Shown here piece by piece: positions 1-6,000 of a DNA stretch of 64,000 nucleotides; within the stretch, counting starts at the first letter, position 1, and each line of letters opens with the position of its first letter. The DNA is from Pocillopora damicornis (taxonomy: Eukaryota). The stretch covers positions 620,001-684,000 of the forward strand of contig NW_020846063.1 in NCBI RefSeq assembly GCF_003704095.1, given 5' to 3'. Position numbers: made by a program.

Positions 1-3000
1 AAGCGTTACCGTTATCTTATCGTGTGACACAGTTAGCCGTGATTTCTCGGAAGCTTGTAAACTCTCGAAACCAAGCTAAACTTTACTATCCCGACCCTTG
101 TTATAACGAACTGGCAGCCTGTCCAGTGAGCGCATTGAACATGAATAATAAAATTAAACGAATCAGCTGTTGAATTTGAGAACAATAGGCCATTGATTGA
201 ATCACTGTCACGTGACAAGGTGGACTTTGCTAGAAAAATTCTTCAATCAATGTTGACGTCCCAGTTGGTGTTTCTAGGAAATCACTGATACCTCACAGAC
301 GACAAACATGCAGAAATCCCAAACGCGGGCCATTGTTTTGCCTTTTTGGACGTTTGCTGTCCTTGTAACGGCACTAGTTGGCCTATTCCCAGCGTTACTG
401 TATTGTATTGGTGAGATTGTAGTGCTGAAATCACGCTTTGAGCAACAACAGCAGACAATCGAGTACTTAGAAAACGTCACAGCGCATATTCAACGCAGAA
501 CTGTGGAAAACGATTTCTCGAGCGGCGAAACGCAAGAGGCTTACCAGAGTTCCAGGCTTACCATGAAATGGAAGGTTTGACGTTTTTACGTTTCCTTGGT
601 TGACAATTTTTATTTTGAACGACCTCGAGGTCTTAGAAACCGGTCGCTCAATTATACACACAATTGTCAAAGCTTGGCAGCTACTTAGGAACGCAAAGCA
701 CAATTACTCATTCTTTATCGGGTTTACACAAGACCTTAACGTTAATTGAAATCGTTTCTACACTAACTCAGAGTTAGTCCACGTAGGTATCTACAAGAAA
801 ACCAAGCTAGATATTTATTTGTGGAAAACTAAACGTCATTTCCGCATTGTACATTGTTTAGGAAAGCGAAATACGACTGATGAGACAGAGGAGGGACACT
901 GGTTCACGAAAAAATGATTCATGCCGCTGCAGGCGAGGTAGATATATCACTGAGATTTTCATCCAGTTTATACAAAACTACAAAATATAACAAAAAGAAT
1001 GGGACTAGGCGCAAGTCAATATCGGCTTGGGGTGTTATTTAGCAGCCTTAGATAGAGGGCTAGTGCATCGAGTTTATAAAATCCCCTCTCCCCCCCTTTC
1101 CCTGCCCAACACCCTTCCCCTTTTGTAAAGAGTCTGGGGCGCGAGAAAGTAGCAATGTTCATTCTGAATGAGAAGACAAGCAGCCAAATAAGCGGTCCAA
1201 AAAGCCCAGGGTTCGTGATAAAATGATAAAAAATTGGCCATACATATTTTTGCTTAAAACACTGTTTCTCGGCAATGAGGCATCCTAGAGGCACACACAA
1301 ATTATGCTTTTCCCTGGGAACAGACATTTCNNNNNNNNNNNNNNNNNNNNNNNNNNNNNNNNNNNNCCCCCCCCCCCAACGACCTTCGGCTCCAGTTCAA
1401 TTGCATTCCTAGCAGTTTATTCCTTACTCTAGCGTTTCACTTTTTCCGTCTAAATACACAGCCTACAAGAAGAGATTTGTAAAATGAGGCACTTCTTCAA
1501 TTGTTCGCATAATGATTATTTTGCCTTTACTCGAGCTGTTGGCTGAAGTCCATGAAAAGCTTATTTCTCGGAAGTCCTCTCTTACATCAAAAATCGCTTT
1601 TTGAACGAGGTGTGAAATTCAATCCTGCGACAGCCCTAAAATAAGAAAGCTGTTCGTTTTGCAATTAATTCTAAAAGAAAGGAAAAAAAAAGGTTTTACT
1701 TGCGACCTAATTTGCTTTTTATAACTTTCTCTGGATGATTCAAATTTTGTTGTTATGATATACAGTTACATAACTTGAGGTCAGGTATTGGGTCACTTTG
1801 GATAGTGGTTTATTTTGAAACTATATATATCGAAACAAAGCTTTATTAGCTTACCAAGGATATTGTTCCTGTAAGACAATACAGTTCAGATGTGGTCTGG
1901 CACGTTCTTGACCTTGGAGTCTCAATTCTAAACAATGTCTAGAAGCAATATCAATTTGCCTTGCAAAATTAAAATTCTGTTTTGAAAGCAGCTCTTTTTG
2001 ATAAAGACTATGGTTTAAGCTTCATGTACCAAAGAAAGTGAGGTCCTATAAAATGAGTCTTAAACGAATTTTAATGTCAGTTTATGCATGTTTTGGTACT
2101 TCACGTAATGACTTAAACGTCACGTACTGTAAGGGATAACTTGTCACGTGAAACAAAAAATACGGAGTGACCAGACACGTATATTCACGTTACACAAGTC
2201 TTTCTGTAAAAAAAAAGTTTTTCTATTTTAGGTCGTAAAGGAGAGCGGGGACCAAAAGGACAGAAAGGTGATGTTAAATGAAGGGGGGAAGTTGATGTTA
2301 TAATTTTGAAAAGTCATCCTTAATCGTACGAATTTCATATCTATTTTTCCATTCACACAAAAGCTTAAACGTGTCTTAAAGCAGTTTTGTTAAACACGAT
2401 TTAAATTTGTTTTCTTCATAGAAGCAGCTTAAACCGATGTTTGTCGACTTCAAATTTAGCACATTAAAGTACAAGTTAGTGACTACTTGAAGCCGATGGA
2501 AAATTCAGTTTTTCAGCTCTCTGTATCTTATTTTCATTCAATTAATCCGGATTTAACTAAACATGTCTTACTAGAGTGAATGGGGTATATGAAACTTAAG
2601 ACTGTTGTCAGAGCCAGCAAAGCAAGTGCTTAAATTATTCGTATATTTGAGCGCGAGTCTTTTTAATGTTTACAAATAGACACGCGCGGACATACGCAAA
2701 GAGGACATTTATCCTCGCGGTATCTTTTCCTATGTGTGCGCCTTTGTGATTCGCTTGCTGTTTAAGCGCATGACTAGGATGTAATTAGGAGTAGCCTCTA
2801 GGTCAAGATCCTGTGTAGAAACTTGTTATATTCAATTCAACAGAGGCTCTAATGTGTGTAAATAACAATCTGCTTTTTTTCTGTGCAGGATCGACCGGAC
2901 GAAAGGGAAGGGCAGGTAAAAAAACTTGTTTTTCAAAACTAGAAAGAAAAAGTACTTGTATCTCTTTTAAATACTGCATCCAGTTACGATTGTGGCGGGA

Positions 3001-6000
3001 AAAATATAATTTGTTGAGTAACCTACAATCTTACGAAATGTTGTCATGGTCATGAAAGATCAACACCACCATGATCGTCATCATCACCAGCATCATTATC
3101 ATTATCGTTAGCGGATCCCTTTAATCAACAACTTGAGTAGAACGTGTATACATATCATACAGGCGCGGTTACCGAACCGAAAGCACTTTTCTTATTCGTT
3201 TCGTTTTTTTTTTTTCCTCAGGACCGAAAGGTGACACGGGAGCACTCGGCAACACTGGACCGCCGGGAAGGGATGGACAGAAAGGGAAAATGGGTACGTG
3301 CGTTGTGTTTACTTTAATTAGTAATGGCAGCTCACCAAGACTGCCGCTAGGAATCTTGTCTAAAGCTTCAGATGGTCTCATACCACCGTTCCTTACTTTA
3401 AAATACTAGTCTTGATCGATCCCCTCAAGATAAGATATTTTCTCTTCTTAAGACATTCAAAAACAATGGACGAATAACCTCTTACCTAGGTCTCTATTGC
3501 TTCTCTTTCAGGTGAGCGAGGAGAGCCTGGGCCTCCAGGTAGTGCAGAAGTCTCTACTGGGCACCTACACAAAATATATGATAGCTCTGATTAAAATTTT
3601 TTCTTGGAAATGCACCATTCATCAGTTCCACTTACCATTTCATATAAAAAAGCGGCTGTCTCGTCAAGTGCGTAATTCAATCTGAATAGGAATGACACAC
3701 ATGGCACATTTTGTGGACTAAAACGAAAAAACCGGAGCAAAATTTGAGAAAACGAGCCACATAAAGGCCAAGTTTTTTAACTTTTCCTGTTTATCTTTTC
3801 TTATATTACTGCACTGAGTGTTTGCACACCAGTCATAAGTGTAATCAAATGGTTTTTATTGACAATTTCTTTGCCTTTACGTTTAAAACAGGACAACCAG
3901 GCTCAATGTTTCGGGTGAGTGTTTCTTACAATATATTGATGATGATATGCCTCTTTTTTCGCCCATTGGTTTTGTACTAAATACTTAAACACTAACTCTC
4001 TGCGGGTGATTTTTCTTAATTTTAAATTTTAAGTCTTGATGATACCACTAAGATTATCCTGCTTGAATTCATTTCCTCAAACTTTTGTTTGTATCTCAAT
4101 TCAGTCCACAGACTCGGCTCACATCGTTGGTTATGGTGAGCACATAAATCCCCCAAGAGGTACAACAAAATGTTAGTGTTAATCTCTTTTCTATTTTCTG
4201 GGTTTTTGTGAACGTGCACTATATAATAGCCTCGAAGTTACGCATAATTATTTTTAAGGCAAAGTCGAGTTGACTTACAACGTCAGGCGATCTGATCATT
4301 GCGAACTGTGAACAACCTTCGTTTTTAGCGCGCAAAGGAAAATCCTTATCATCGATCCTTCAAAGGCGATGTTATTAGAGAGATGACATTAGGAATAGGT
4401 ACTCGTTGAAATCATCAATTTCCCTGAGTCATGGTGAAATTATGATGATTATTCATACTTGTCTTTTAACTTTTACAAATTCAAATTCTTTCCTAGACGC
4501 ACATGGGGTGAGAGAGGAGCGGGGGGGGGGNNNNNNNNNNGAAGGTTCCAGCGATAGCATTTAACCTCCTATCTCCTCCGTACCCCTAGCAACGCCCATT
4601 GTACCAATTTTGAAATTAACACCCTCTTCTCTCTGCTCTCCTCAGTCCACCGCATCACGAACTGGAAACTAGGCCACATAACCGGTAGTATCAAATTCGT
4701 CAGCAACAGCTTCCTTGTGATTGGCACAACTGGCTACTACTTCGTGTACAGCCAACTCTTCTATTATGCAGGGGACACTCTCCTTATGGGCCATTACACA
4801 TACATCAACGAGGAACCGGTCATGCGCAGTCTGAGCAGTGTCGTCAGCGAGGAGAGAAAGTACAACACGAATTATCACGGCGCAGTGTTCATGCTCAGAA
4901 GCGGTGACAAAATATCTGTGCGCATCCCGTTCACAAAGTCCTACTTCATGCATAAGGAAACCAGTTATTTTGGTGCTTTCCTTATCAGCCCCGTGTTAAA
5001 CACGACCAGTTTTGTTCGAACGACTAACACAACTCAGGATTTCCCATAGAGCGGTTTTCAATCGAGTGTTGAAAGTTAAGTAATGCGGAAATGAAATGTT
5101 TTTTTTTTACTTCGCACCGTGATTGATTTGAAAATCTTGTTCCACTCTCTCGACCAATGAGATGAAAAACAAAAACAAATCGTTGACTTGGCATTCACCT
5201 TTTCCCCAGCTCGCCTCAAGCAATTAAGGTGGGGGAGGGGGGGATTGGAAGATTTTGGGGATCACATGCTTTTCAGGGAGAGGAGATAGGTGTGAAAAAC
5301 ATTACAGAGCTAAGGGAGGATCAGGTAAATTTATCGTACAAATACCAAAATCTTCCGAACCCCCACCCCTCAGGGGATAAATAAAGACATGTCCCTAAGC
5401 TTGTTTTTACATCAGATTTTCATTTCCTCTACTACTACTTTGCTTTGATTGGCTGTTGTCATTATTTTGGTTTGGTTTTAGCGACACTCGATCGAAATGC
5501 GCAATGACCTTGAAGTACAAGTTATACGTTCATTTTGTAGACTTAAATGTTTGAAACTTTATCTAGTAACAAGTTTATCAGCAGAGTTTCTATTACTTGA
5601 ATAACGTCACATACAGAAAGTCAAAAGTGTTAGGAAAGGGAAAAGTTCTTTTTCATAGTGCACTGTTCAACTCAAATATAAACAAATCTGCGTTTGCGAA
5701 TACTTCTCGCAGGCGGACACCTGCTATATGCATACGACGATTATTTTACATTTTTATTTGCTCTTTGTGACGTGCAAAATTCCCTACCAAGTGAAGGAGA
5801 CGACAACATATTACTTCGGAAAGTTGGAAAAAAATGGAAAGAATAAGCCAGTTAGAATGGTGTAGATTTAAAAAAAATTCTAATGAGATTCTTGAAAACG
5901 TACTCCAAAGTTTCAAGATTCCAAAAAAAGCGCAATAGTTCCTTCAAGTTCCCAAACTTAAGAAAAAAAAAGTTTCGGTGGTCTTTGACAACTGAATTTC

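What the first reader, a model, noticed from the sequence alone, without database searches (positions are those of the whole stretch)
308..5049. Complete ectodysplasin architecture with a collagen stalk built from 9n-bp micro-exons
Seen: TM, RQRR furin site, CRC, then 20 perfect Gly-X-Y triplets, then the TNF domain. The collagen is carried by symmetric phase-1 exons of 36, 27, 72 and 27 bp plus a 23-bp exit exon, none of which is evident from the ORF track. Established: EDA is the vertebrate TNF ligand with this TM-furin-collagen-THD layout and signals in ectodermal appendage development. Inference: an EDA-type shed, multimerising ligand exists in an apparently non-bilaterian animal. Any of the four 9n exons can be skipped without breaking frame or the Gly register, so splicing could tune stalk length.
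[Added by the scan's program, not by the reader: the finding's places include an assembly gap (unread letters, written N; its length is only estimated) at 1331 to 1366, 4531 to 4540. Whether the letters on both sides are continuous or in frame is not known: test that first.]
Basis: partly seen in the sequence, partly recalled or inferred. Interest (0 to 1): 0.68.

Follow-up and report, generated by a model that had tools for sequence, protein, structure and literature searches.

The report
Coral ectodysplasin-like TNF ligand gene
This is an intact stony-coral gene for a membrane-anchored, collagen-stalked signalling protein of the TNF family that resembles vertebrate ectodysplasin; it is real, but the gene is already annotated and this kind of ligand is already described in cnidarians.

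Summary
Nine AG/GT-bounded exons (308-5049, + strand) encode a type II membrane anchor, RQRR, a CRC pair, 20 uninterrupted Gly-X-Y triplets on phase-1 exons of 36, 27, 72 and 27 bp plus a 23-bp exit exon, and a TNF homology domain. Both N runs lie in introns, and an annotated orthologue leaves no residue unaccounted for across them.

The gene is not new. The last exon is 100% identical to NCBI 'ectodysplasin-A isoform X1 [Pocillopora verrucosa]'. Collagen-bearing EDA-like TNFs are already published for Hydra, Acropora and Nematostella.

EDA is the closest solved relative by sequence profile (51.9 bits; TRAIL 43) and by fold (top 8 chains). My tree leaves orthology unresolved (deep bootstraps 2-46%). 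Collagen stalks occur in many THD lineages and were apparently lost in a nested coral paralogue.

9n-bp exons with split Gly codons are ordinary collagen gene anatomy. Exon skipping is mechanically possible but has no evidence.

One small new point: exon 8 has two in-phase donors 12 nt apart (+/-4 residues in a THD loop), and both forms occur among anthozoan relatives. Interest is low.

The parts
308..574 (+). Exon 1 (267 bp, phase 0 to 0). It holds the start codon, a 7-residue cytoplasmic tail, the signal-anchor/TM segment (best hydrophobic window residues 16-34 = bases 353-409) and the start of a long helical stalk.
   Evidence: first 81 and last 4 residues identical to P0002. AF2 helix 10-70 at pLDDT above 90 in the P0002 model.
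862..937 (+). Exon 2 (76 bp, phase 0 to 1). It holds the furin-type motif RQRR (883-894) and the Cys pair CRC (922-930). Its last base is the first base of the first Gly codon.
   Evidence: exact substring of P0002 residues 87-111. R-x-[KR]-R at the aligned site in 5 of 7 orthologues. Cys pair in 9 of 9 window-clade proteins.
1331..1366 (.). Assembly gap (36 N) inside intron 2, followed by a poly-C run.
   Evidence: One search shows that no P0002 residue is unaccounted for between exons 2 and 3.
2232..2267 (+). Exon 3, collagen micro-exon, 36 bp, phase 1 to 1 (4 triplets).
   Evidence: P0002 residues 113-123.
2889..2915 (+). Exon 4, collagen micro-exon, 27 bp, phase 1 to 1 (3 triplets).
   Evidence: P0002 residues 125-132.
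3222..3293 (+). Exon 5, collagen micro-exon, 72 bp, phase 1 to 1 (8 triplets).
   Evidence: P0002 residues 134-156. Pfam Collagen 19 bits, sub-threshold for this 23-residue piece alone.
3512..3538 (+). Exon 6, collagen micro-exon, 27 bp, phase 1 to 1 (3 triplets).
   Evidence: P0002 residues 158-165.
3892..3914 (+). Exon 7, 23 bp, phase 1 to 0. It holds the last two triplets and the exit from the collagen register.
   Evidence: P0002 residues 167-173.
4105..4171 (+). Exon 8, the start of the TNF homology domain (strand A). It has two in-phase donors 12 nt apart: 4159|GTACAA (short form, junction codon V) and 4171|GTTAGT (long form, +GTTK, junction codon F).
   Evidence: both lengths are exact substrings of P0002 (174-191 and 174-195); long form in P0001-P0005 and P0007; short form in P0006 and P0010; one search shows it also in P0018.
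4531..4540 (.). Assembly gap (10 N) inside intron 8, preceded by a poly-G run.
   Evidence: One search shows that no P0002 residue is unaccounted for between exons 8 and 9.
4646..5049 (+). Exon 9 (404 bp including the TAG stop), phase 1 in. It holds the rest of the TNF homology domain and a short N-glycosylation-motif-rich tail.
   Evidence: PF00229, 49 bits; 100% identical to P0002. PDB TNF-family hits; the only one of 1607 six-frame segments that hits the THD profile significantly.

Best explanation
An intact, conserved, nine-exon gene of a Pocillopora-type coral. It encodes a type II transmembrane ligand of the TNF superfamily of the ectodysplasin-like, collagen-stalked kind.

Shown:
- the exon structure;
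- a hydrophobic signal anchor after a 7-residue tail;
- a long predicted helix;
- an R-x-R-R motif;
- a conserved Cys pair immediately before the collagen run;
- 20 uninterrupted Gly-X-Y triplets;
- a C-terminal TNF homology domain whose closest solved relative is EDA.

Inferred from what is established for EDA and for other collagen-stalked trimers (C1q, collectins, adiponectin):
- The THD and the collagen run each drive trimerisation.
- A furin-type convertase cuts after RQRR and releases a soluble trimer that keeps the Cys pair, the stalk and the THD.
- The Cys pair staples the N-terminal end of the triple helix and/or links trimers into higher oligomers. Together with the very basic stalk, this raises avidity for an EDAR-like TNF receptor of the kind reported in cnidarians.

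The collagen stalk is split into 9n-bp phase-1 exons because that is how non-fibrillar collagen sequence is generally organised. The evidence here does not point to a dedicated regulatory device. Orthology with vertebrate EDA is likely but not demonstrated.
For: Gene structure: (all AG/GT, consistent phases).

Agreement with annotation. Eight of 9 exon translations are exact substrings of the NCBI protein P0002 'ectodysplasin-A isoform X1 [Pocillopora verrucosa]', and exon 1 matches over 81+4 residues.

Conservation. Collagen+TNF orthologues occur in Stylophora, Oculina, Porites, Montipora and Actinia, with 100 invariant columns among 7 sequences. P0006 (319 aa on a 1730-nt contig) and P0005 (327 aa on a 3634-nt contig) sit on contigs too short to hold about 4 kb of introns. 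This implies spliced transcripts carrying the whole stalk.

THD identity: (PF00229, 49 bits). EDA is the best single-domain PDB hit, 39.7 bits with the exon alone and 51.9 bits with the profile. THD pLDDT is mostly 83-97; the top 8 Foldseek chains are all EDA (E about 1e-11, TM normalised to target 0.79-0.85, rmsd 2.4-2.7), followed by APRIL, BAFF and Spodoptera Eiger.

Motif conservation: R-x-[KR]-R at the aligned site in 5 of 7; Cys pair 9 of 9.

Literature: Hydra, Acropora and Nematostella collagen-TNFs and EDAR-like receptors; 7 of 13 coral death-domain TNFRs cluster with EDAR; EDA layout: TM, furin site, 19 Gly-X-Y, THD.
Against: - No expression, cleavage, oligomer or receptor data exist for this gene in anything I could see.
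- The furin motif is imperfect in 2 of 7 orthologues: RIKK in P0005, and no motif at the aligned column in Actinia P0010.
- The EDA lead over TRAIL is only about 9 bits in the PDB profile search. In the 1.84-billion-protein search, TRAIL-like P0096 scores 52.2 bits against 47-55 bits for vertebrate EDA representatives.
- The NJ tree (82 taxa, 117 columns, 200 bootstraps) gives 2-46% support at deep nodes. It recovers a 100% clade of 15 sequences around vertebrate EDA that excludes the coral gene.
- The Cys pair is absent from 0 of 10... that is, present in 0 of 10 collagen-bearing members of that vertebrate clade.
- Vertebrate stalks are 19 triplets in two runs, here 20 in one run.
- Human EDA collagen variants c.546-c.697 all map to one exon, whereas here the stalk spans five exons.
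Confidence: 0.8

Rival explanations
1. EDA-like by architecture only. The gene is a collagen-stalked TNFSF ligand that is not a one-to-one orthologue of vertebrate EDA. A collagen stalk in front of a THD would then be either ancestral to much of the superfamily and repeatedly lost, or repeatedly gained. The EDA resemblance would reflect slow evolution and a shared layout.
For: -: 37 of 82 THD proteins of 230 aa or more carry a Gly-X-Y run of 5 or more triplets.
- these proteins are scattered over the tree, including beside TRAIL-like sequences (P0014). Deep nodes have 2-46% support. The 100% vertebrate-EDA clade excludes the coral gene.
- collagen-less coral paralogues P0008 and P0009 nest with the collagen-bearing coral genes at 91%, so the stalk is evolutionarily labile.
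- the Cys pair is in 9 of 9 window-clade and 5 of 5 family-2 proteins but 0 of 10 vertebrate-clade proteins.
- the collagen exon structure differs from human EDA.
- TRAIL-like representatives score as high as EDA representatives.
Against: - EDA is first in both PDB sequence searches and holds the top 8 places in the fold search. It is followed by APRIL, BAFF and Eiger, the families that the literature groups with EDA (passage on the 'V22' genes EDA, TNFSF13 and TNFSF13B).
- My NJ tree is demonstrably unreliable at depth. It separates P0012/P0013 from P0020/P0022/P0045, which share an obviously homologous N-terminal region.
- Published NJ trees place Hydra HyTNF nearest human EDA.
Confidence: 0.3
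2. One reading: the four symmetric 9n-bp exons are alternatively skipped, so that splicing tunes the length of the collagen stalk.
For: -: each of exons 3-6 is phase 1 to 1 and a multiple of 9 bp. Skipping any of them keeps both the frame and the Gly register.
- in-frame AG acceptors also lie 9 nt inside exons 3, 5 and 6.
- stalk length varies among relatives (8 to 20 triplets in the window clade, up to 51 in family 2).
- NCBI lists numbered isoforms (X1, X2) for this gene family.
Against: - No isoform lacking a micro-exon was seen. In alignment A1 the collagen-region gaps in the 6 other orthologues are 3, 3, 3+3 and 6 residues, never 9, 12 or 24.
- The two transcript-sized contigs (P0005, P0006) carry full stalks of 19 triplets.
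- 9n-bp exon lengths and split Gly codons are generic to collagen genes, so symmetry is not evidence of regulation.
- In-frame loss of 2 or 4 triplets in human EDA is reported as disease-associated, though mild.
- The isoform look-up could not be made.
Confidence: 0.1
3. A secreted C1q/CTRP-type or scavenger-receptor-type collagenous protein rather than a TNF ligand. Some automatic names for relatives suggest this: 'C1q-related factor-like' for Stylophora and 'macrophage receptor MARCO-like' for an Orbicella family-2 protein.
For: -: those names are given by a source.
- C1q-domain structures appear in the fold list (first at rank 16, E 5.5e-9). This is expected, because C1q and TNF domains share a fold.
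Against: -: the only Pfam family at E up to 1 on the last exon is TNF PF00229. C1q PF00386 is not listed.
- all 60 listed PDB sequence hits are TNF-family ligands, or Eiger and its Spodoptera homologue.
- Precomputed Pfam on all collagen-bearing relatives is Collagen + TNF.
- Identity to the C1q structures is 13-14%, against 24-25% to EDA.
- The N-terminus is a signal anchor followed by a long helix, not a cleaved signal peptide (orientation inferred).
Confidence: 0.02
4. Chance ORF pieces, a pseudogene, or an assembly artefact created by the two gaps.
For: Two N runs lie inside the span. The window's exon 1 differs by 3 residues from the annotated P. verrucosa protein.
Against: - Nine exons with canonical splice sites and consistent phase, and no internal stop.
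- Four of the 5 long Gly-X-Y runs in the whole window are these exons.
- Exons 2-9 match a database protein exactly.
- Strong conservation to sea anemones.
- Both gaps are intronic.
Confidence: 0.02

Closest known systems
Vertebrate ectodysplasin-A (EDA-A1/EDA-A2; PDB 1rj7, 1rj8, 7x9g)
   Same: - Type II TM, a furin-type motif, a collagen-like Gly-X-Y stalk of about 19-20 triplets and a C-terminal THD (layout of EDA).
- EDA is the best solved-structure match by sequence and by fold.
- TM on exon 1 and the furin motif on exon 2 in both genes (for human; here).
- Both genes have an alternative donor that changes a few residues inside the THD (for the EDA isoforms differing by 2 residues; here).
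   Different: - Only 24-25% identity in the THD.
- 20 uninterrupted triplets here, against 19 in two runs.
- A Cys pair directly before the stalk here, in 0 of 10 members of the vertebrate clade.
- A 7-residue cytoplasmic tail here.
- The stalk is on five exons here, whereas human collagen-domain variants c.546-697 map to one exon.
- The alternative donor lies after strand A here. In EDA the 2-residue difference lies after the 'YSQV' strand (alignments printed).
- Not recovered inside the 100% vertebrate-EDA clade.
Hydra HyTNF and the collagen-bearing TNFs of Acropora and Nematostella (Steichele & Boettger, bioRxiv 10.1101/2019.12.13.875351; passages seen)
   Same: [quoted passage not shown] The authors interpret them as EDA-related, and they are paired with EDAR-like receptors.
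   Different: The passages I read give no exon structure, no Cys-pair motif and no splice variants. I did not retrieve those particular sequences, so their direct relationship to the window gene is not tested. In my searches anthozoans have at least two such families: the window clade, and family 2 (P0012, P0013, P0020, P0022, P0045).
APRIL/BAFF (TNFSF13/13B) and insect Eiger
   Same: They are the next-best fold matches after EDA: APRIL 5e-10, BAFF 5.9e-10, Spodoptera Eiger 1.6e-9. The literature groups them with EDA. All are type II ligands, and furin shedding is recalled for APRIL and BAFF.
   Different: They have no collagen stalk. Sequence-profile scores are lower: APRIL 35.3, BAFF 28.3, Eiger 23.6 bits.
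C1q/CTRP family, collectins and other non-fibrillar collagens
   Same: A collagen stalk in front of a trimeric globular head. N-terminal cysteines stabilise the collagen region (MBP abstract). Split glycine codons are described as a defining feature of collagen IV genes. C1q heads share the jelly-roll fold (rank 16 onward).
   Different: The head domain here is TNF, not C1q. The protein is membrane-anchored with a convertase motif instead of being secreted through a signal peptide (inferred).

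Membership tests
TNF ligand superfamily (Pfam PF00229) | C-terminal TNF homology domain recognised above the curated threshold | tested here: met
   49 bits against a cutoff of 23, on the last exon alone; 75 and 73 PDB sequences at E up to 10, and all 60 listed are TNF-family ligands.
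TNF ligand superfamily (Pfam PF00229) | Jelly-roll fold of the THD | tested here: met
   on the model of the annotated orthologue P0002. There are ten strands from residue 177 to 311, and pLDDT is mostly 83-97 over the THD. At least 384 PDB matches have E up to 1e-3, headed by TNF-family ligands.
TNF ligand superfamily (Pfam PF00229) | Type II membrane topology (N-terminal signal anchor) | tested here: inconclusive
   hydrophobic window at residues 16-34 with Kyte-Doolittle mean 2.4; continuous helix 10-70. Orientation is inferred from position and from the family, not predicted by a topology tool.
TNF ligand superfamily (Pfam PF00229) | Homotrimer that binds a TNFR-type receptor | not testable with these tools
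   Only a monomer was modelled and no receptor is in the window.
Ectodysplasin-A orthology group | TM - furin motif - collagen-like stalk - THD, in that order | tested here: met
.
Ectodysplasin-A orthology group | THD closer to EDA than to any other TNFSF family | tested here: inconclusive
   EDA is first in the PDB by sequence (51.9 bits; TRAIL 43) and by fold (top 8 chains). Against that, TRAIL-like and EDA representatives score alike (52 against 47-55 bits).
Ectodysplasin-A orthology group | Monophyly with vertebrate EDA in a supported tree | tested here: inconclusive
   NJ tree with 82 taxa and 200 bootstraps. Deep splits have 2-46% support. The 100% clade of 15 sequences around P0119 (EDA) does not contain the coral gene. 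The method is weak at this divergence.
Ectodysplasin-A orthology group | Shared gene structure with vertebrate EDA | tested here: inconclusive
   TM on exon 1 and the furin motif on exon 2 in both. The collagen is on one exon in human (variants c.546-697) and on five exons here. THD intron positions were not compared because no vertebrate gene sequence was used.
Ectodysplasin-A orthology group | Signals through an EDAR-type receptor | not testable with these tools
   The literature reports EDAR-like TNFRs in Hydra and Acropora. No pairing data exist for this ligand.
C1q/CTRP family (Pfam PF00386) | C-terminal globular C1q domain | tested here: not met
   no C1q match at E up to 1. C1q structures rank from 16 downward with 13-14% identity.
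Non-fibrillar-type collagen coding sequence | Gly-X-Y repeats on exons that are multiples of 9 bp and begin within a split Gly codon | tested here: met
   exons of 36, 27, 72 and 27 bp, all phase 1; 9n-bp exon lengths in fibrillar collagens, there with intact Gly codons; split Gly codons in collagen IV genes.

The most novel reading that the evidence does not exclude
The two in-phase donors of exon 8 (4159 and 4171) form an ancient, regulated splice switch. It inserts or removes four residues (GTTK, with a V/F change at the junction) in the loop after strand A of the THD. That loop contacts receptors in other TNF ligands (recalled, not tested). Both forms exist among anthozoans: the long form in 6 proteins and the short form in 3, including one stony coral and two sea-anemone-type sequences. 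On this reading the switch would change receptor choice in the way the 2-residue EDA-A1/EDA-A2 donor choice does in vertebrates, but at a different place in the domain. It would then be an independent invention of the same trick, possibly combined with occasional skipping of the 9n-bp stalk exons.
Probability: 0.15. Interest if true: 0.5.

Novelty: already known. Interest (0 to 1): 0.2.

Why it matters
It matters little as a discovery. The gene is already in RefSeq under the name ectodysplasin-A, and EDA-like collagen-bearing TNF ligands with EDAR-like receptors have been described in cnidarians.

Its value is as a clean, gap-checked gene model. That model shows three things:
- A coral EDA-like stalk is built from collagen-style 9n-bp phase-1 exons, unlike the single collagen exon of human EDA.
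- A Cys pair before the stalk is a conserved anthozoan feature that the vertebrate EDA representatives lack.
- A 12-nt alternative donor inside the THD deserves a look in transcript data.

If EDA/EDAR signalling in corals proves to act in epithelial differentiation, as proposed for Hydra, this locus is the ligand candidate in Pocillopora.

Tried and rejected
1. Isoform check through cluster members. Annotated isoforms X2 and beyond were therefore never seen.

2. Word-indexed protein searches. They returned only 10 and 15 proteins and no vertebrate EDA, so named comparators for a tree were lacking. P0015, the one vertebrate hit, is a tandem TNF/LT-like lizard protein and not EDA.

3. NJ tree. 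It is unresolved at depth and splits an obviously related coral family, so I do not use it for or against orthology. I use only its well-supported shallow clades. No likelihood tree software was available.

4. A candidate extra exon at 4329-4398, seen by eye. It is open only in phase 0, which does not fit the phase-1 donor of exon 8, and it is absent from P0002. Rejected.

5. A third in-phase donor inside exon 8 (4135|GTGAGC). None of the 9 collagen-bearing relatives corresponds to it. Treated as cryptic.

6. The downstream gene as a second THD.
- Pfam and PDB sequence searches found nothing.
- The THD profile gave E 6.7.
- The single-sequence AF2 model had mean pLDDT 44.6, so I did not fold-search it.
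- hhalign gave 26.5% probability.
- Only the atlas lead (0.92) and the layout point to TNF. Left as inconclusive.

7. Exon-structure comparison in other corals or anemones. This was impossible, because the only open genome collection holds bacteria and archaea.

8. The joined step was left out. Full-length analyses (alignments A1 and A3, the structure model) used the database protein P0002 as returned.

The supplement of PMC5395295 on split Gly codons was not seen. It does not bear on the verdict.

Full report

Yes. Reading 1-5400 and checking mechanically gives nine + strand exons with AG acceptors behind pyrimidine tracts and GT donors:
- E1 308-574 (267 bp)
- E2 862-937 (76 bp)
- E3 2232-2267 (36 bp)
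- E4 2889-2915 (27 bp)
- E5 3222-3293 (72 bp)
- E6 3512-3538 (27 bp)
- E7 3892-3914 (23 bp)
- E8 4105-4159 (55 bp)
- E9 4646-5049 (404 bp with the stop)

Phases are consistent throughout. E3-E6 are all phase 1 in and phase 1 out, and all are multiples of 9 bp. Each begins with the last two bases of a Gly codon and ends with the G of the next one. Together with E2's last base and E7, they give 20 uninterrupted Gly-X-Y triplets. RQRR (883-894) and CRC (922-930) lie on E2. Residues 16-34 are the best hydrophobic window, with a Kyte-Doolittle mean of 2.4.

As a chance control, the whole 64 kb in six frames holds 16 Gly-X-Y runs of at least 3 triplets. Only 5 have at least 4 triplets, and 4 of those 5 are these exons. 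No further splice-bounded Gly-X-Y exon hides in the introns.

**2. The gaps**

The N runs at 1331-1366 and 4531-4540 lie in introns 2 and 8, each next to a homopolymer C or G run. Continuity of the reading frame therefore depends on the splice junctions and not on the unread letters.

The annotated orthologue P0002 is covered from residue 87 to 329 by the translations of E2-E9 plus the split codons, with nothing left over. Neither gap hides a constitutive coding exon. An alternative exon inside a gap cannot be excluded.

**3. What it is**

I searched exon by exon and left the joined step out. The window's exons were never concatenated. Full-length work used the database protein P0002 as returned.

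- *Domain.* The last exon alone is a TNF homology domain: Pfam PF00229 at 49 bits against a cutoff of 23.
- *Identity.* It is 100% identical over its whole length to P0002, a 329-aa protein that NCBI names 'ectodysplasin-A isoform X1 [Pocillopora verrucosa]'. Eight of the nine exon translations are exact substrings of P0002. Exon 1 matches over its first 81 and last 4 residues and is 3 residues longer near its end.
- *Source.* A neighbouring gene's last exon is 100% identical to a Pocillopora damicornis protein. The window therefore comes from a Pocillopora-type scleractinian coral, a cnidarian.
- *Orthologues.* Collagen + TNF orthologues exist in Stylophora, Oculina, Porites, Montipora and the sea anemone Actinia. 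Seven of them align with 100 invariant columns.
- *Transcript support.* Two orthologues sit on contigs of 1730 and 3634 nt. These are too short to contain introns of the size seen here, so the whole stalk is present in spliced transcripts of related corals. This is an inference.

**4. Correction to the model: two donors in exon 8**

P0002 reads '...INPPRGTTKFHRITN'. This needs the donor at 4171|GTTAGT, giving exon 8 as 4105-4171 (67 bp) with junction codon F. The donor at 4159|GTACAA, 12 nt upstream and in the same phase, gives '...INPPRVHRITN'.

Among relatives, the long form is seen in P0001-P0005 and P0007. The short form is seen in P0006 (a stony coral transcript-sized contig), P0010 (Actinia 'isoform X2') and P0018.

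The four residues fall in a loop between the first two strands of the model, where the block pLDDT is 73. Whether one species makes both forms is not shown.

**5. How close is it to EDA?**

*Sequence against the PDB.*
- With the exon alone, EDA is the best single-domain hit (39.7 bits, E 5.7e-9), then lymphotoxin-alpha (31.1 bits), TRAIL (29.9) and APRIL (27.9).
- With a profile of seven anthozoan THDs: EDA 51.9 bits, TRAIL 43, APRIL 35.3, TL1A 31.7, BAFF 28.3, Eiger 23.6.

*Fold.* An AlphaFold model of P0002 was built with a 50-row alignment (mean pLDDT 79, THD mostly 83-97). It finds EDA chains in the top 8 places (E about 1e-11, TM normalised to target 0.79-0.85, rmsd 2.4-2.7, 24-25% identity). 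These are followed by APRIL, BAFF and Spodoptera Eiger, with TRAIL and TNF lower.

*Exhaustive search.* The THD profile found 317 proteins at E up to 1e-3, 68 at up to 1e-10 and 14 at up to 1e-30 among 1.84 billion. Representatives that I could name through the PDB score alike. P0119 is EDA (E 1.3e-94) and scores 47.6 bits. P0096 is TRAIL-like (E 4.5e-39 to a TNFSF10/TRAIL chain) and scores 52.2 bits.

*Tree.* A neighbour-joining tree used 82 sequences of at least 200 aa, out of 138 whose THD spans profile positions 26-108 and 162 held, with 117 columns and 200 bootstraps.
- The stony-coral clade, with the collagen-less paralogues P0008 and P0009 inside it, has 91% support.
- Adding the Actinia-type sequences gives 55%.
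- A clade of 15 sequences around vertebrate EDA has 100% support and excludes the coral gene.
- All deeper splits have only 2-46% support.
- The tree also separates P0012/P0013 from P0020/P0022/P0045, which share an evidently homologous N-terminal region. I do not trust its deep topology.

*Net.* EDA is the closest known relative, and the EDA/APRIL/BAFF/Eiger neighbourhood is favoured by fold. Orthology is not demonstrated.

**6. The collagen stalk in context**

- Of 82 held THD proteins of at least 230 aa, 37 carry a Gly-X-Y run of at least 5 triplets. They are spread over the tree.
- Anthozoans have at least two such families, the window clade and a second one (P0012, P0013, P0020, P0022, P0045).
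- Both families have a Cys pair within 12 residues before the stalk (9 of 9 and 5 of 5). None of the 10 collagen-bearing members of the vertebrate EDA clade has one.
- An R-x-[KR]-R motif lies upstream of the stalk in 8 of 9, 5 of 5 and 8 of 10 respectively. In the window clade this count often includes the RCRR that overlaps the Cys pair.
- At the aligned position of RQRR, the motif is present in 5 of 7 orthologues.
- Stalk length ranges from 8 to 20 triplets in the window clade and reaches 51 in family 2.
- The collagen-less paralogues nested at 91% imply that a stalk can be lost after duplication. The Montipora model P0001 (591 aa) fuses such a paralogue with the collagen-bearing gene, which suggests they are tandem neighbours.

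**7. The micro-exons**

The literature I read says that fibrillar collagen exons are 54 bp or related lengths (45, 99, 108, 162 bp), all multiples of 9 and beginning with an intact Gly codon (PMC2852846, passages). It also says that split glycine codons are a defining feature of vertebrate collagen IV genes and occur in ctenophore collagen IV (PMC5395295, passages). The window's 9n-bp exons with split Gly codons are therefore ordinary collagen gene anatomy of the non-fibrillar style.

The gene differs from human EDA. There the TM is on exon 1, the furin site is on exon 2, and the collagen-domain variants c.546-c.697 all map to one exon (PMC6892193, table passages).

Skipping any of E3-E6 would keep frame and register. 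I found no evidence that this happens. The collagen-region gaps in the 6 other orthologues of alignment A1 are 3, 3, 3+3 and 6 residues, not 9, 12 or 24. The isoform look-up could not be made.

**8. Most likely mechanism**

*Shown:* the anatomy described above.

*Inferred from the established behaviour of EDA (PMC8685516, passages; PMC6892193) and of other collagen-stalked trimers:*
- The protein inserts as a type II membrane protein.
- It trimerises through the THD and the triple helix.
- It is cut after RQRR by a furin-type convertase. The shed product keeps the Cys pair, the very basic 60-residue stalk and the THD.
- The Cys pair staples the N-terminal end of the helix and/or links trimers.
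- The resulting multivalent ligand engages an EDAR-like TNF receptor. Such receptors are reported in Hydra and Acropora.

The biological role in corals is unknown. The Hydra work proposes epithelial differentiation rather than apoptosis.

**9. Novelty**

The gene is annotated under this very name. The class is published: Hydra HyTNF with TM + collagen + TNF 'as in human EDA', and 2 of 5 Acropora and 2 of 4 Nematostella TNFs with a collagen domain (bioRxiv 10.1101/2019.12.13.875351, passages).

Searches for ectodysplasin with coral, Pocillopora or cnidarian terms, and for collagen-domain TNF ligands in Acropora and Nematostella, found no paper on the exon structure or splice variants of such genes in the held library. 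I read only titles and abstract starts of those listings, apart from the papers named above.

The main finding is therefore already known. The exon map, the Cys-pair contrast with vertebrate EDA and the 12-nt donor pair are small additions.

**10. Surroundings**

Six kb downstream on the same strand lies a second type II membrane protein gene (11236-15156). It is 100% identical in its last exon to 'uncharacterized protein LOC113676217 [Pocillopora damicornis]' (P0163, 280 aa).
- It has an RQRR on its own small exon, a Cys-rich linker and no collagen.
- There is a phase-1 intron before its last exon, as in the EDA-like gene.
- Its C-terminal 134 residues end in FGAFLVS.

Its TNF nature is unproven:
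- no Pfam or PDB sequence hit;
- THD profile E 6.7;
- hhalign probability 26.5%, E 7e-4, collinear over 100 columns;
- atlas first hit a TNF-domain cluster at 0.92 with 192 of 256 features;
- an unusable single-sequence model, mean pLDDT 44.6.

Only 1 of 1607 six-frame segments of the window hits the THD profile significantly, and that is the EDA-like last exon.

**11. What stayed unchecked**

- Exon structures in other cnidarian genomes (no eukaryotic genome collection open).
- THD intron positions in vertebrate EDA.
- Any transcript, protein or receptor data for this locus.
- Supplementary files of the papers.

Noticed in passing
window 4105-4171 (donors after 4159 and 4171): Exon 8 has two in-phase GT donors 12 nt apart. 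The annotated Pocillopora protein uses the distal one (+GTTK, junction F). One stony-coral transcript-sized protein and two anemone-type proteins have the form matching the proximal one (junction V). This is a possible conserved splice switch in a THD loop. A third in-phase donor at 4135|GTGAGC matches no relative.
   Followed up: partly
window 11236-15156 (+): A neighbouring gene identical in its last exon to an uncharacterized P. damicornis protein (P0163). It has a type II TM, an RQRR on its own exon, a Cys-rich linker, no collagen, a phase-1 intron before the last exon, and a C-terminus ending FGAFLVS. It is a possible highly divergent TNF-like ligand that Pfam does not recognise. The evidence is inconclusive.
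   Followed up: partly
proteins P0008, P0009, P0016 and P0001 (relatives, not in the window): Collagen-less coral TNF paralogues group with the collagen-bearing genes at 91% bootstrap. The Montipora model P0001 fuses one of them upstream of the collagen-bearing gene. This suggests a tandem duplicate that lost its stalk exons. The window starts only 307 bases before the ATG, so the upstream neighbour cannot be seen here.
   Followed up: partly
window 922-930 and relatives: A Cys pair (CRC, CPC, CTC or C-x3-C) lies within 12 residues before the collagen run in 14 of 14 anthozoan-type collagen-TNF proteins. It is in 0 of 10 collagen-bearing members of the vertebrate EDA clade.
   Followed up: yes
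window 2241, 3231, 3521: In-frame AG acceptors lie 9 nt inside exons 3, 5 and 6. Each would remove exactly one Gly-X-Y triplet if used. One-triplet length differences among orthologues fall near the exon 3/4 boundary in alignment A1.
   Followed up: no
window 550-574 (3' end of exon 1): The window encodes 3 more residues here than the annotated P. verrucosa protein, in a poorly conserved part of the stalk. This may be a species or allele difference or an assembly difference. It is not resolved.
   Followed up: partly
relatives P0003 and P0013 (names): Automatic names for members of the same families disagree: 'ectodysplasin-A', 'C1q-related factor-like', 'macrophage receptor MARCO-like' and 'uncharacterized'. 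The collagen part apparently drives the best hit.
   Followed up: no
window 36207-41079 (-): ORF pieces with PAN/Apple, EGF and F5/8 type C (discoidin) domains, apparently two similar PAN+EGF units. They are probably exons of one or two extracellular adhesion-type genes.
   Followed up: no
window 47595-48155 (-) and 24531-24884 (-): An ORF with a pyridine nucleotide-disulphide oxidoreductase domain (37.5 bits), and a weak sulfatase fragment (18.4 bits, below the cutoff).
   Followed up: no
window N runs 1331, 4531, 33102, 62429: Four of the 7 N runs in the window abut homopolymer C or G runs, so the assembly seems to break at such tracts. Three others are exactly 100 N.
   Followed up: no
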